Virus record (IMG/VR): IMGVR_UViG_2675903289_000009 | DNA: 4,443 nucleotides | Reading direction: 5' to 3' (one strand) | Source: a virus | Taxonomy: Duplodnaviria; Heunggongvirae; Uroviricota; Caudoviricetes | Part shown: in pieces, positions 410 to 3,893 of the stretch | How positions within the stretch are numbered: the first letter of the stretch is position 1 | Layout: every line of letters begins with the position of its first letter | Made by a program: the position numbers and the translations under genes | Notes under the pieces: model-generated | What the model saw: only the letters and a program-made list of their open reading frames with translations | What the model was told of the DNA's origin: nothing | The model's database searches: none

Positions 410-957
410 CGACTTTTACCAGAGAGCAGTTAATAGCTCACGCAGAGGAGACTATTGAAGCACAGAGACTGTGCATACCGGGCACAATCGACCATGACAT
501 CATCCGCACATATAAGATGGATATTGCTGTTCTGGAAATCGCNNNNNNNNNNNNNNNNNNNNNNNNNNNNNNNNNNNNNNNNNNNNNNNNNNNNNNNNNN
601 NNNNNNNNNNNNNNNNNNNNNNNNNNNNNNNNNNNNNNNNNNNNNNNNNNNNNNNNNNNNNNNNNNNNNNNNNNNNNNNNNNNNNNNNNNNNNNNNNNNN
701 NNNNNNNNNNNNNNNNNNNNNNNNNNNNNNNNNNNNNNNNNNNNNNNNNNNNNNNNNNNNNNNNNNNNNNNNNNNNNNNNNNNNNNNNNNNNNNNNNNNN
801 NNNNNNNNNNNNNNNNNNNNNNNNNNNNNNNNNNNNNNNNNNNNNNNNNNNNNNNNNNNNNNNNNNNNNNNNNNNNNNNNNNNNNNNNNNNNNNNNNNNN
901 NNNNNNATTCGATTTGCCGCTGGGGATAAAAACGGTTTGCGGGAAAAGGAGAGTTAA
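406..957 (+). CDS. hypothetical protein, interrupted by a 364-nt N run; 3' end unresolved
   Basis: ATG at 406 in ATGA overlap with the upstream stop; a protein-like N-terminus ([45 protein letters not shown]) runs into the N run at 543. The N run is not a multiple of 3, so the frame after it is unknown; the end is 957 if the frame is kept, 961 in the other open frame. Confidence 0.4.
543..906. other. run of 364 N (unresolved or masked sequence)
   Basis: Literal n characters in the sequence; length not a multiple of 3. Confidence 1.
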
Positions 958-964
958 GTAGAAT
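937..964 (+). promoter_or_regulatory. candidate sigma70 promoter of the hok mRNA (-35 TTGCGG 937-942, 16-nt spacer, -10 TAGAAT 959-964)
   Basis: Hexamers read directly. The predicted start (~971) coincides with GGGTGCTTGAGG, which resembles the 5' end of the plasmid R1 hok mRNA (GGCGCUUGAGG) as I recall it. Confidence 0.4.
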
Positions 965-1020
965 TGCAGCGGGTGCTTGAGGCTATCTGTCTCAGGCATG
1001 AACACCAAAAGGCAGATAGA

Positions 1021-1092
1021 GAAAAGCCCCAGTTAACATTACGCGTCCGGCAAGACGCTTAACATTAATCTGAGGCTCAATCTATGAACGGC
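1021..1092 (-). ncRNA. sok: predicted Sok-like antisense RNA (approximate ends)
   Basis: Predicted start ~7 nt downstream of the - strand -10, near 1092. The transcript would be antisense to the leader ORF GAGG (1072-1075) and ATG (1084). It contains a 9-bp hairpin with one mismatch (UUAAGCGUC-UUGCCG-GACGCGUAA, complement of ~1039-1062). The 3' end is placed at a short U run (complement of 1021-1026); it is not a canonical terminator, so the end is uncertain. Confidence 0.45.
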
Positions 1093-1296
1093 AAATCTAG
1101 GTTAGCCTCTTACGTGCCGAAAGGCAAGGAGAAGCAGGCTATGAAGCAGCAAAAGGCGATGTTAATCGCCCTGATCGTCATCTGTTTAACCGTCATAGTG
1201 ACGGCACTGGTAACGAGGAAAGACCTCTGCGAGGTACGAATTCGAACCGGCCAGACGGAGGTCGCTGTCTTCACAGCTTACGAACCTGAGGAGTAA
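1084..1296 (+). CDS. mok: mok-like leader ORF, here in frame with hok (70-codon ORF giving an N-terminally extended Hok)
   Basis: ATG at 1084 with GAGG at 1072-1075; 19 codons upstream of and in frame with the hok ATG. The alternative frame that would match R1 mok has TAG at 1098-1100 and no start codon. Confidence 0.45.
   Translation: MNGKSRLASYVPKGKEKQAMKQQKAMLIALIVICLTVIVTALVTRKDLCEVRIRTGQTEVAVFTAYEPEE
1099..1127 (-). promoter_or_regulatory. candidate sok antisense promoter on the - strand (-35 TTGCCT = complement of 1122-1127; 17-nt spacer; -10 TAACCT = complement of 1099-1104)
   Basis: Hexamers read from the reverse complement. Their position between the leader ORF start and the hok start, and their spacing, match the R1 sok promoter arrangement as I recall it (TTGCGC - 17 nt - TATCCT). 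Confidence 0.5.
1141..1296 (+). CDS. hok: Hok/Gef family membrane toxin, 51 aa (MKQQKAMLIALIVICLTVIVTALVTRKDLCEVRIRTGQTEVAVFTAYEPEE)
   Basis: ATG at 1141 with AGGAG at 1127-1131. Single hydrophobic transmembrane segment followed by the conserved ...TRKxLCExR...EVAxFxAYE... periplasmic tail typical of Hok (compare R1 Hok [52 protein letters not shown]). Closely resembles HokD/RelF as I recall it. Confidence 0.9.
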   Translation: MKQQKAMLIALIVICLTVIVTALVTRKDLCEVRIRTGQTEVAVFTAYEPEE

Positions 1297-1345
1297 GAGA
1301 CCAGGCGGGGGAGAAATCCCTCGCCACCTCTGATGGGTCAGGCAT

Positions 1346-1358
1346 CCTCAATGCACCC
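1346..1358 (+). promoter_or_regulatory. fbi-like 3' element complementary to the mRNA 5' end (971-982)
   Basis: CCTCAATGCACCC (1346-1358) is the reverse complement of GGGTGCTTGAGG (971-982) apart from one bulged T. This matches the long-range 5'/3' pairing that keeps full-length hok mRNA translationally inert. Confidence 0.6.
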
Positions 1359-1364
1359 ACACTT

Positions 1365-1398
1365 AACCCGCTTCGGCGGGTTTTTGTTTTTATTTTCA
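1365..1398 (+). terminator. Rho-independent terminator of the hok transcript
   Basis: AACCCGC-TTCG-GCGGGTT hairpin (1365-1382) followed by TTTTTGTTTTTATTTT. Confidence 0.85.
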
Positions 1399-1404
1399 AC
1401 GCGT

Positions 1405-1434
1405 TTGAAGTTTTAGATGGTGCCGGAATAGAAT
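1405..1434 (+). promoter_or_regulatory. candidate sigma70 promoter for the downstream rem-like/DUF968/rusA/Q gene string (-35 TTGAAG 1405-1410, 18-nt spacer, -10 TAGAAT 1429-1434)
   Basis: Hexamers read directly, in the 118-nt gap between the hok terminator and the next RBS. Speculative. Confidence 0.3.
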
Positions 1435-1516
1435 CAAAAATACTTAAGTAGCGCGCAGGGAGAAGAGGGATGGACCCCGAACAGGGGAGTGCTATTTATC
1501 TGGAAGGATTCTGTTG

Positions 1517-1798
1517 ATGAAAATCGAAGAATTACGTGAAATTTTTAGTGAAGATGGCCTCTATACTGTGCGCGTTGAGAATGGCGCTATTGTCAGCCAC
1601 TGCCTTCCAGACTACACAATTCTGATAATTCAGCCGTCTTTGCCAGCAGGCACGGGCGGCGCTCTCACGCATTTAAATCTGATTGGTACCAGCATCCCCC
1701 ATGCACTGAAGAACAGGCCGAATGGCTCATTCAGTGTTACCGCAGGCGCGGATGCGAGGTTAAAAAAGCCCTTAGCCTCGACTACCGTCACTGGATAA
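1517..1798 (+). CDS. small hypothetical protein in the rem position (between hok and DUF968); the C-terminal part is probably encoded in the -1 frame (see findings)
   Basis: ATG at 1517 with GGAAGG at 1502-1507. The N-terminal ~40 aa are protein-like (MKIEELREIFSEDGLYTVRVENGAIVSHCLPDYTILIIQP); the later part of this frame is low complexity. A start-less overlapping frame is open from 1579 to TAA at 1870-1872 and looks more protein-like. Confidence 0.5.
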   Translation: MKIEELREIFSEDGLYTVRVENGAIVSHCLPDYTILIIQPSLPAGTGGALTHLNLIGTSIPHALKNRPNGSFSVTAGADARLKKPLASTTVTG

Positions 1799-2990: not shown

Positions 2991-3371
2991 ATGACCGAGC
3001 GCATAGAATTTGTTTTACCTTACCCGCCGACGGTGAACACTTACTGGCGTCGTCGTGGCAGCACATATTTTGTATCAAAAGCCGGGGAGCGTTATCGCCG
3101 GGCAGTGGCGCTTATTGTTCGCCAGCAGCGGCTGAAATTAAGCCTGTCCGGAAGGTTGGCAATAAAAATTATTGCAGAACCACCGGATAAGCGCCGCCGT
3201 GACCTGGACAATATTCTGAAAGCGCCGCTGGATGCGCTGACGCATGCGGGGTTGCTAATGGACGATGAGCAGTTTGATGAAATCAATATCGTTCGTGCTC
3301 AGCCAGTATCTGGTGGACGTCTGGGGGTGAAGATTTACCCCATAATGCATGAAGAGCAGGTCAAAAAATGA
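2991..3371 (+). CDS. rusA: RusA-family Holliday junction resolvase (crossover junction endodeoxyribonuclease), 126 aa
   Basis: ATG at 2991 directly abuts the DUF968 stop. The protein shares the RusA hallmarks with E. coli RusA as I recall it: LPxPPxxNxY near the N-terminus, PDxRRRDLDN acidic catalytic motif, ALTxAGxxxDDxQ and GGRL near the C-terminus. Confidence 0.92.
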   Translation: MTERIEFVLPYPPTVNTYWRRRGSTYFVSKAGERYRRAVALIVRQQRLKLSLSGRLAIKIIAEPPDKRRRDLDNILKAPLDALTHAGLLMDDEQFDEINIVRAQPVSGGRLGVKIYPIMHEEQVKK

Positions 3372-3637
3372 AACTGGAAGATTTACCGAAATACTACTCC
3401 CCAAAATCCCCTTGCCTGACCGATGCATCGGCCTCAACGTCAAAAGATGCGCTGAGTATCACTGATGTGATGGCCGCGCAGGGCATGACACAGAATCGGG
3501 CTGAGATGGGGGTTTCTGCGTTCCTTGGGAAAATGGGCATTAGTATGAATGACAGAGAGCGGGCAACAGAATTGCTGACAGAATATGCACTCAGTCGGTG
3601 TGATCGCGTGGCGGCGTTAAGAAAACTCCCGGCAGAA
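3368..3637 (+). CDS. late-gene antiterminator Q (phage 21/933W/Qin type), N-terminal 90 codons up to the N run
   Basis: ATG at 3368 in ATGA overlap with the rusA stop. The N-terminus (MKLEDLPKYYSPKSP...TDVMAAQGM...FLGKMGISMND...) matches the conserved N-terminus of this Q family as I recall it (MRLESVAKFHSPKSP...TDVMAA...). It sits in the Q position downstream of rusA. Confidence 0.75.
3511..3637 (+). repeat. direct repeat copy 1 (127 nt of Q coding sequence)
   Basis: Aligns without indels to 3767-3893; I count 12 mismatches in 127 positions. Confidence 0.9.
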
Positions 3638-3766
3638 NNNNNNNNNNNNNNNNNNNNNNNNNNNNNNNNNNNNNNNNNNNNNNNNNNNNNNNNNNNNNNN
3701 NNNNNNNNNNNNNNNNNNNNNNNNNNNNNNNNNNNNNNNNNNNNNNNNNNNNNNNNNNNNNNNNNN
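3638..3766. other. run of 129 N (unresolved or masked sequence) inside the Q gene
   Basis: Literal n characters. Confidence 1.
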
Positions 3767-3893
3767 GTTTTCTGCGTTCCTGGGGAAAATGGGCATCAGT
3801 ATGAATGACAGGGCGCGGGCAACAGAATTACTGGCAGATTATGCACTCAGTCGGTGCGATCGTGTGGCGGCGTTGAGAAAACTTCCGGCAGAA
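3767..3893 (+). repeat. direct repeat copy 2 (127 nt of Q coding sequence), offset 256 nt from copy 1
   Basis: See copy 1. An offset of 256 is not a multiple of 3, so the two copies lie in different reading frames. Confidence 0.9.

What the first reader, a model, noticed from the sequence alone, without database searches (positions are those of the whole stretch)
937..1398. Intact hok/sok-type type I toxin-antitoxin locus with all regulatory parts, inside the prophage regulatory region
Recognisable parts are present in the expected order: promoter, 5' end resembling the R1 hok mRNA, leader ORF whose start is covered by a convergent antisense promoter, Hok toxin ORF, 3' fold-back element and terminator. 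As I recall, the K-12 Qin copy hokD/relF is described as a relic that depends on the relBE operon and lacks its own mok/sok elements; here they look complete and no RelE-like gene is visible upstream. Hok toxins kill by damaging the inner membrane, so an active locus could stabilise the prophage or act in phage exclusion.
Basis: partly seen in the sequence, partly recalled or inferred. Interest (0 to 1): 0.5.

Follow-up and report, generated by a model that had tools for sequence, protein, structure and literature searches.

The report
Complete hok/sok toxin-antitoxin locus in prophage

Summary
Window 936-1396 is a full-length hok/mok/sok type I toxin-antitoxin locus.

- **Leader:** Rfam's hok-leader model (RF01794 "sok") matches 971-1146 on the + strand at 112 bits (threshold 59).
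- **Toxin:** the 51-aa ORF 1141-1296 is a Pfam Hok/Gef protein, identical to K-12 HokD.
- **Leader ORF:** an in-frame mok ORF starts at 1084.
- **Antisense promoter:** its hexamers equal those of the experimentally mutated sokW promoter.
- **mRNA folding:** the full-length mRNA closes by pairing 971-982 with 1346-1358. In-silico 3' trimming gives the published tac/ucb and SD/dcb refolding.
- **K-12 comparison:** K-12 Qin keeps only the part from about 18 nt before hokD; relE replaces the leader.

It is not new. Phage 933W's 1999 record annotates mokW/hokW/sokW at 93% identity. Takada et al. 2021 showed hokW-sokW is a working type I system that aids phage release. At least 80% of the locus is present in 2231 of 5426 complete E. 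coli genomes. Of 80 IMG/VR contigs with an identical Hok, 77 carry the full leader.

Its role here (lysis aid, prophage stabilisation or phage exclusion) is inferred, not shown. One side observation: the Sok 5'-tail target (1081-1097) is the most variable patch of the transcript.

The parts
936..964 (+). hok promoter: -35 TTTGCG (936-941), 17-nt spacer, -10 TAGAAT (959-964)
   Evidence: Read directly from the sequence. The hexamers are conserved and the spacer is variable in 66 distinct related loci. It falls below the generic scan threshold.
971..982 (+). hok mRNA 5' end with the tac element (GGGUGCUUGAGG)
   Evidence: Start of the full-length Rfam RF01794 match. It is invariant in alignment A2 and in 77 of 80 loci. 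It pairs with 1346-1358 in the full-length fold and with 1024-1030 after 3' trimming.
973..999 (+). alternative 5' hairpin (973-983 with 989-999), candidate metastable hairpin of the nascent transcript
   Evidence: Appears as the minimum-energy structure for the transcript cut at 1340. Assigned by analogy with the R1 model described in PMC9841398.
1024..1030 (+). ucb / anti-SD box (AAGCCCC)
   Evidence: In the full-length fold 1025-1031 pairs with the mok SD region 1071-1077. In the trimmed fold 1024-1030 pairs with tac 971-978. That helix is kept in 8 of 8 sequences.
1022..1092 (-). Sok antisense RNA, about 71 nt: single-stranded 5' tail, long hairpin, U-rich 3' end
   Evidence: Ends transferred from the sokW feature of phage 933W. 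It is 65/71 identical to sokW, and all six differences lie in the first 10 nt. The fold is -31.4 kcal/mol, z = -5.2, with a free 5' tail.
1099..1127 (-). sok promoter: -35 TTGCCT (1127->1122), 17-nt spacer, -10 TAACCT (1104->1099)
   Evidence: Read directly from the sequence. The hexamers are identical to sokW, whose -10 was mutated to abolish antitoxin activity.
1072..1075 (+). mok Shine-Dalgarno (GAGG), 8 nt before the mok ATG
   Evidence: Read directly from the sequence. It is sequestered by ucb in the full-length fold and pairs with dcb after trimming.
1084..1296 (+). mok leader ORF (70 codons), in frame with hok
   Evidence: ORF list. PHROG 251 'MokW-like host killing', E 7.7e-33. It has the same geometry as mokW and K-12 mokC.
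1104..1109 (+). dcb box (AGCCUC)
   Evidence: Pairs with 1072-1077 in the trimmed fold. The five invariant pairs are kept in 8 of 8 sequences.
1126..1131 (+). hok Shine-Dalgarno (AAGGAG)
   Evidence: Read directly from the sequence. Invariant in all loci, including K-12.
1141..1296 (+). hok toxin gene (51 aa)
   Evidence: Pfam PF01848 at 82.9 bits. It is 51/51 identical to K-12 HokD and 47/51 to HokW.
1304..1325 (+). 3' UTR hairpin
   Evidence: Minimum-energy fold. Three of its pairs show compensatory changes in alignment A2 (helix 15).
1346..1358 (+). fbi fold-back element (CCUCAAUGCACCC; U1352 bulged)
   Evidence: Pairs with 971-982. The duplex is -21.1 kcal/mol and 2 of 2000 shuffles reach it. 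It is present in 74 of 80 loci with an identical Hok.
1365..1396 (+). intrinsic terminator (stem 1365-1382, then T runs)
   Evidence: Terminator scan. Homology with many phage copies ends just after it, at window 1385-1391.

Best explanation
This is a complete hok/mok/sok type I toxin-antitoxin cassette of the hokD/hokW lineage. It has its own promoter and terminator and is embedded in the early-right (nin-like) region of a lambdoid prophage.

Mechanism, taken from the R1 and hokW systems and matched here element by element:

1. A stable ~415-nt hok mRNA is made from the promoter at 936-964.
2. It is born inert. Its 5' end (tac, 971-982) pairs with the 3' fbi element (1346-1358), and the ucb box hides the mok ribosome-binding site.
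3. Slow 3' trimming removes fbi. Then tac pairs with ucb, and the mok SD moves into a hairpin with dcb. The mRNA becomes both translatable and a target for Sok.
4. Sok is a labile ~71-nt antisense RNA made constitutively from the convergent promoter at 1127->1099. It pairs over the mok start and SD, blocks mok and hence the coupled hok translation, and marks the duplex for RNase III.
5. When Sok synthesis stops or is outrun, Hok (a 51-aa inner-membrane peptide) is made and depolarises the membrane.

The most likely role in this context is the one measured for the 93%-identical hokW-sokW of prophage Sp5. Hok is released on RecA-dependent prophage induction, which hastens lysis and roughly doubles phage yield. 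Here the cassette points the same way as the surrounding early genes. Read-through early transcription could therefore add hok-sense RNA and interfere with the convergent sok promoter. That last step is my inference.
For: **Shown here**
- Rfam leader model at 112 bits.
- Pfam Hok/Gef at 83 bits and PHROG 'MokW-like host killing'.
- The Hok protein is identical to K-12 HokD.
- The sok promoter hexamers and 65/71 nt of Sok are identical to sokW.
- The full-length fold closes by tac/fbi with ucb on the mok SD. Trimming to 1345 or 1335 gives tac/ucb and SD/dcb, exactly the switch described for R1.
- On 8 related loci, 91.5% of cells are paired and 11 pairs carry compensatory changes, against 2-4 for slid controls.

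**From the literature**
- hokW is toxic; sokW made from its own promoter neutralises it; HokW rises and sokW falls after mitomycin C in a RecA-dependent way; phage yield halves without the locus.
- HokD is toxic when expressed.

**Context**
- The neighbouring genes are co-oriented: DUF968, RusA and Q downstream. The same layout is seen in E. coli EC332.
Against: - No expression or toxicity data exist for this copy.
- tac, ucb, dcb and fbi are invariant in this subfamily, so their pairings have no covariation support from my alignment. They rest on thermodynamics and on conservation.
- Neither promoter reaches the generic sigma-70 scan threshold.
- The tested hokW locus sits elsewhere in its phage, beside L0134-L0142 and not in the nin region. 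The lysis-aid role and the read-through idea may therefore not transfer.
- The hokD mRNA is reported to need, or at least to receive, low-level A-to-I editing to create Cys at the Tyr47 codon. This could limit toxicity.
Confidence: 0.9

Rival explanations
1. The molecular system is the same, but its selected role is prophage stabilisation by post-segregational killing. Cells that lose or excise the prophage lose the short-lived Sok while the stable hok mRNA persists, so they are killed.
For: This is the classical function of R1 hok/sok. The cassette is autonomous, with its own promoter and terminator. hok genes are about four times enriched in prophages. GenBank annotators label homologues 'phage maintenance protein'.
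Against: Tested chromosomal hok loci did not mediate post-segregational killing. In Sp5 the measured phenotype was faster lysis and higher yield, not maintenance. An excised prophage normally goes on to lyse the cell anyway.
Confidence: 0.25
2. The molecular system is the same, but it acts as abortive-infection or phage-exclusion defence for the lysogen. A superinfecting lytic phage shuts off host transcription, Sok decays, and Hok kills the cell before the invader completes its cycle.
For: R1 hok/sok on a high-copy plasmid reduced T4 plating by 42% and plaque size by about 85% (cited). Prophages often carry defence cargo.
Against: No enrichment of hok next to defence systems was found. The R1 effect needed a high copy number. 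Nothing has been tested for the hokD/hokW lineage.
Confidence: 0.15
3. The locus looks intact but is functionally silent, a selfish or decaying passenger. For example, Hok(Tyr47) may be weakly toxic without RNA editing, or the weak promoters may give negligible expression.
For: Most K-12 hok loci are inactivated. hokD editing is only about 6%. Both promoters deviate from consensus. Truncated or frameshifted copies exist in the family: pHS30-1 lacks fbi, several IMG/VR copies are frameshifted, and K-12-type relE fusions occur.
Against: Every regulatory element and the coding sequence are conserved almost without change across dozens of mosaic phage backgrounds, which argues for purifying selection. 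HokD and HokW are toxic on expression. Native hokW is expressed on induction.
Confidence: 0.1

Closest known systems
mokW/hokW/sokW of Stx2 phage 933W and Sakai prophage Sp5 (GenBank AF125520; Takada et al. 2021, PMC8621323)
   Same: It is 92.9% identical over window 907-1368. The order of sok, mok and hok is the same, with mok in frame with hok. tac, ucb, dcb, fbi and the sok promoter hexamers are identical. Sok is 65/71 identical and Hok 47/51.
   Different: Four C-terminal Hok residues differ. Mok codons 2-5, which are also the Sok 5' tail, differ at 6 of the first 10 nt of Sok. 933W has a different 3' end after fbi. The genomic position differs: beside L0134-L0142 in 933W, against rem/DUF968/RusA/Q here.
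hokD (relF) of the Qin cryptic prophage, E. coli K-12
   Same: The Hok protein is identical (51/51). The SD, 3' UTR, fbi, terminator and the downstream neighbours (rem, ydfU/DUF968, Q) are the same.
   Different: K-12 has relB-relE fused about 18 nt upstream of the hokD ATG. It lacks the hok promoter, tac, ucb, the mok start, dcb and sok. The window has all of these and no relBE. K-12 also lacks rusA between ydfU and Q.
hok/sok (parB) of plasmid R1, the reference system
   Same: The element set and logic are the same (tac/fbi closure, ucb/SD, the tac/ucb and SD/dcb switch, Sok over the mok start), as described in PMC9841398 and reproduced in silico here. The Rfam leader family and the Pfam family are the same.
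   Different: The proteins are distant: HokW is 44% identical to R1 Hok. It is carried on a plasmid and has a proven post-segregational-killing role. From my own recollection, not checked here, mok in R1 is in a different frame from hok, whereas here it is in frame.
hokC/mokC/sokC (gef) of E. coli K-12
   Same: mok is in frame with hok, and Sok starts 9 nt inside mok, the same geometry as here. The Sok 3' parts are similar.
   Different: It is a chromosomal locus, not a prophage one. In K-12 IS186 is annotated immediately beside it, and the literature lists it as inactivated by an insertion element. The sequence is divergent.

Membership tests
[quoted passage not shown] | Small (~50 aa) Hok/Gef membrane toxin ORF | tested here: met
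   Pfam PF01848 at 82.9 bits (cut-off 22), covering profile positions 1-42 of 42. It is identical to K-12 HokD.
[quoted passage not shown] | hok mRNA 5' leader with the conserved sequence and structure (tac stem, Sok-target region, hok SD) | tested here: met
   Rfam RF01794 full-length match at 971-1146, + strand, 112.4 bits against a gathering score of 59.
[quoted passage not shown] | Overlapping leader ORF (mok) with its own SD upstream of hok | tested here: met
   ORF 1084-1296 with GAGG 8 nt upstream. PHROG 251 'MokW-like'. Translational coupling itself was not tested.
[quoted passage not shown] | Cis-encoded antisense Sok RNA with a promoter inside mok, covering the mok start, ending in a hairpin plus U tail | tested here: met
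   TTGCCT-17-TAACCT on the - strand, identical to the mutated sokW promoter. The 71-nt RNA is predicted to fold as a free 5' tail plus hairpin, z = -5.2. The transcript itself has not been observed.
[quoted passage not shown] | Long-range 5'-3' pairing (tac/fbi) that closes the full-length mRNA | tested here: met
   In the minimum-energy and centroid folds 971-982 pairs with 1346-1358. The duplex is -21.1 kcal/mol and 2 of 2000 shuffles reach it. The pairing is kept in 7 of 8 loci, but the columns never vary, so there is no covariation evidence.
[quoted passage not shown] | Refolding after 3' trimming: tac/ucb stem and mok-SD/dcb stem | tested here: met
   Folds of 971-1345 and 971-1335 give 971-978 with 1024-1030 and 1072-1077 with 1104-1109. 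These helices are kept in 8 of 8 loci. This is in silico only.
[quoted passage not shown] | Hok toxicity neutralised by Sok; Sok labile and hok mRNA stable; 3' processing in vivo | not testable with these tools
   Known for hokW-sokW and for HokD toxicity. Nothing has been measured for this copy.
K-12-type relBE-hokD relic | relE directly upstream of hokD, with the hok leader and sok absent | tested here: not met
   The leader and sok are present. The K-12 alignment breaks at about window 1123. No RelE is found in the visible upstream sequence or in the unmasked relative L010.

The most novel reading that the evidence does not exclude
The only part of the transcript that varies freely among otherwise near-identical copies is the ~15-nt patch at 1081-1097. 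This patch holds mok codons 1-5 and is the target of Sok's single-stranded 5' tail. If it is diversified by selection, each prophage's Sok would preferentially recognise its own hok mRNA. Co-resident prophages, up to 11 hok-like places per genome, would then keep independent kill switches rather than cross-protecting one another. The window's Sok differs from sokW only there.
Probability: 0.15. Interest if true: 0.4.

Novelty: already known. Interest (0 to 1): 0.12.

Why it matters
It matters little as a discovery. The complete prophage form of this module was annotated in phage 933W in 1999. It was shown to be a working type I system in 2021. It is catalogued in Pfam, Rfam and PHROGs, and it is present in about 40% of complete E. 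coli genomes.

It is useful as an annotation point. RefSeq records label only the 'hokD' coding sequence. The mok, sok, tac, ucb, dcb and fbi elements mapped here could be transferred to thousands of prophages. The K-12 relBE-hokD arrangement, often taken as the reference, is the derived exception.

The biological role of hok/sok in prophages (lysis timing, maintenance or defence) is still open. This nin-region copy, co-oriented with early transcription, would be a convenient test case.

Tried and rejected
- **Source search:** an exact search of genome contigs for a window-specific 42-mer found nothing. A probable source or twin was later found in IMG/VR: L010 is 100% identical over 907-1500. 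It has 265 nt where the window has 364 N, so identity in the masked part is not certain.
- **Covariation for tac/fbi, tac/ucb and SD/dcb:** not obtainable, because these columns are invariant in the hokD/hokW subfamily. I did not build a family-wide alignment with R1, flm, srnB, pnd or hokA/B/E.
- **Degenerate-pattern scan of viral contigs for Sok-target variants:** my pattern was one base too short. It retrieved only one variant (ATGCGACACATAG...), so it gave no unbiased distribution.
- **Within-genome test of the orthogonal-Sok idea:** inconclusive. Of 6 genomes with two or more copies in my sample, 3 had different patches and 3 identical ones. Two of the three with identical patches were found only through the biased scan.
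- **Generic promoter scan:** it found neither the hok nor the sok promoter. They are assigned by homology and conservation.
- **Weak Rfam hits judged chance or terminator-driven:** isrK (25.7 bits against a threshold of 50) and rsmX on the 3' UTR, plus sR55 and Yar_3 elsewhere. The isrK resemblance was not followed up.
- **Literature:** a search for Sok cross-talk among prophage copies found nothing specific. Pedersen & Gerdes 1999 is not in the library, so its content is cited only through later papers.
Full report
**What is in the window**

The 4443-base window has three masked N runs, at 543-906, 2009-2070 and 3638-3766. All of its genes are on the + strand. Small phage ORFs of unknown function lie at 1-231, 242-409 and from 406 onward (PHROGs 1714, 3323 and 660). 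The finding follows at about 936-1396. Downstream come a rem-like ORF (1514-1798), a DUF968/YdfU-like gene (1872-2990), rusA (2991-3371) and a Q antiterminator (from 3368). This is the nin-like early-right region of a lambdoid prophage. E. coli EC332 has the same order, preceded by replication genes and followed by tRNAs and a holin.

**Checking the observation**

- **Leader:** Rfam's RF01794 matches 971-1146 on the + strand over the whole model, at 112.4 bits (gathering score 59), E 6.5e-26. The family is named 'sok', but its consensus runs from the hok mRNA 5' end to the hok AUG. It therefore models the sense leader.
- **Toxin:** ORF 1141-1296 encodes a 51-aa Hok/Gef protein (Pfam 82.9 bits). 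It is identical to K-12 HokD and 47/51 identical to HokW.
- **mok:** ORF 1084-1296 is in frame with hok and has a GAGG 8 nt upstream.
- **Terminator:** an intrinsic terminator lies at 1365-1382 with T runs after it.
- **hok promoter:** TTTGCG-17-TAGAAT at 936-964. It places the start at G971. Its hexamers are conserved across 66 distinct loci while the spacer varies.
- **sok promoter:** on the minus strand, TTGCCT-17-TAACCT at 1127->1099 puts the Sok start at G1092. It has the same hexamers as sokW. Takada et al. inactivated that promoter by changing exactly this -10; primers YO-421/422 show the change.
- **Sok ends:** transferring the sokW feature of phage 933W gives Sok = 1092->1022, 71 nt. 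It folds into a free 5' tail plus a long hairpin and a U-rich end, z = -5.2.

**RNA switch**

The 971-1388 transcript folds at -169 kcal/mol, z = -6.7. In both the minimum-energy and centroid structures 971-982 pairs with 1346-1358. That is 12 bp with U1352 bulged. In the same structures 1025-1031 pairs with the mok SD region 1071-1077.

Cutting the 3' end at 1345 or 1335 changes the optimum. Now 971-978 pairs with 1024-1030, and 1072-1077 pairs with 1104-1109. A cut at 1340 gave the alternative 5' hairpin 973-999 instead, and a cut at 1350 left the 5' end paired with the remaining 3' end. These are the tac/fbi, ucb/SD, tac/ucb and SD/dcb interactions described for R1 hok mRNA (PMC9841398).

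The 5'/3' duplex has an energy of -21.1 kcal/mol. Shuffled 3' UTRs give -12.3 +/- 2.2, and 2 of 2000 shuffles reach the observed value.

I counted pairs on an alignment of eight loci: the window, EC332, 933W, two IncY plasmids, pHS30-1, PPompW and E. coli M8.

| Measure (full-length structure) | Observed | Slid controls |
|---|---|---|
| Cells forming a standard pair | 91.5% | 34-43% |
| Pairs with a compensatory change | 11 | 2-4 |

The four regulatory pairings themselves never vary, so they are supported by conservation and energy, not by covariation.

**Comparison with K-12**

In Qin the order is relB-relE-hokD-rem-ydfU-ydfT. Aligned to the window, homology begins about 18 nt before the hokD ATG and runs through the 3' UTR, fbi and terminator into rem. 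Upstream of that point K-12 has relE. K-12 therefore lacks the promoter, tac, ucb, mok start, dcb and sok.

The window shows no relBE. The contig L010 is 100% identical over 907-1500. In it, the stretch corresponding to the mask holds the end of a 114-aa ORF and a 27-codon hydrophobic ORF. The mask length (364) does not equal that stretch (265 nt).

**How common and how well known**

- At least 80% of window 907-1500 is found in 2231 of 5426 complete E. coli genomes. The median is 2 places and the maximum 11 per genome that has any. The feature is annotated only as a 'hokD' or 'Hok/Gef' coding sequence.
- In phage records, 933W (AF125520) annotates mokW, hokW and sokW at 92.9% identity. Others call it 'MokW', 'gef' or 'host killer'.
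- PHROG 251 is named 'MokW-like host killing'.
- Of 80 IMG/VR contigs encoding an identical Hok, 77 have the exact tac 12-mer 147-170 nt upstream, 2 have the K-12 relE junction and 1 has another truncation.
- Takada et al. 2021 showed that HokW is toxic and that sokW from its own promoter neutralises it, partly through RNase III and Hfq. Mitomycin C depletes sokW and raises membrane-bound HokW in a RecA-dependent way, and deleting the locus halves Sp5 yield.
- A 2026 preprint counts 44,248 Hok homologues and finds them enriched in prophages.

The finding is therefore correct and already known.

**Mechanism and role**

The molecular mechanism is assigned with high confidence by element-by-element correspondence. 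The biological role is inferred. I favour induction-coupled lysis assistance, as in Sp5. Here the cassette is co-oriented with early transcription. Antiterminated read-through could supply hok-sense RNA and collide with the convergent sok promoter. That is my inference and is untested. In 933W the locus sits elsewhere.

Post-segregational stabilisation and phage exclusion remain possible. A silent locus is less likely, because every element is conserved across mosaic backgrounds.

**Side observations**

- Within the transcript, the most variable patch is 1081-1097, the target of the Sok 5' tail. It has at least 15 variants among loci with an identical Hok. The window's Sok differs from sokW only in its first 10 nt.
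- Co-resident copies were different in 3 genomes and identical in 3, in a partly biased sample. A specificity role is therefore unproven.
- One abundant variant has mok out of frame, ending in an ATGA overlap with the hok start.

Further items are listed in the section on things noticed in passing.

Noticed in passing
window 1081-1097: This is the most variable patch of the whole hok transcript among 66 distinct related loci. It has at least 15 variants of mok codons 2-5 even though the Hok protein is identical. It is exactly the target of Sok's single-stranded 5' tail, and the window's Sok differs from sokW only in its first 10 nt. The cause could be specificity diversification or simply a relaxed hairpin loop. 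Co-resident copies were different in 3 genomes and identical in 3.
   Followed up: partly
L146 and more than 120 IMG/VR contigs (L170-L289); corresponds to window 1084-1143: A common variant (ATGCGACACATAGAGATT...) has the mok ATG 56 nt rather than 57 nt before the hok ATG. There mok is a 19-codon leader that stops in an ATGA overlap with the hok start, instead of being an in-frame N-terminal extension. The lineage therefore has two coupling designs.
   Followed up: partly
window 1514-1798 (junction near 1604/1605): The rem-like ORF matches EC332 Rem for its first 30 residues and then diverges. blastn shows that the window lacks about 250 bp present in EC332 (L001 4698-4947). This fuses the rem 5' part to the next ORF, so rem looks like a deletion derivative here.
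   Followed up: partly
window 3513-3637 and 3769-3893: A 125-nt direct repeat at 91% identity covers the N-terminal part of the Q antiterminator, with a masked run between the copies. It could be a partial duplication of Q, two Q alleles joined, or an assembly artefact.
   Followed up: no
L010 363-446 (ends at window 929; mostly masked in the window): A 27-codon hydrophobic ORF (MTWPEALTTVGIAMAVTLMVYSICRWG) lies directly upstream of the hok promoter. It overlaps the preceding ORF's stop in ATGA. It is conserved in 933W and EC332 and has no PHROG match. It may be a second small membrane peptide travelling with the cassette.
   Followed up: no
window 543-906: The masked run is 364 N. The otherwise identical IMG/VR contig L010 has only 265 nt between the same flanks. 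Either the source differs by a 99-nt indel or the mask length is not the true length.
   Followed up: no
window 1305-1386: There is a weak Rfam match to Salmonella Gifsy-1 IsrK (25.7 bits, threshold 50, E 0.012) over the hok 3' UTR hairpin plus terminator. From my own recollection, not checked here, IsrK also lies upstream of a prophage Q-type antiterminator. The match is probably only two-hairpin similarity.
   Followed up: no
window 1405-1434: The only promoter-like site the generic scan found (TTGAAG-18-TAGAAT, + strand) lies just after the hok terminator and before the rem-like ORF. The sequence is also present in K-12.
   Followed up: no
window 1279-1282: The Tyr47 codon TAC followed by G gives the sequence TACG. 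The literature reports low-level (6%) A-to-I editing of hokD mRNA that recodes this Tyr to Cys. That the motif is a TadA recognition site is my own recollection. The site is conserved in all copies with the TAYEPEE C-terminus.
   Followed up: no
L006 (plasmid pHS30-1), alignment A2 columns from about 365 on: This plasmid copy diverges right after the 3' UTR hairpin and lacks fbi and the terminator. Its mRNA could not form the closing 5'-3' stem. It is either a naturally 'open' hok mRNA or a dead copy.
   Followed up: no
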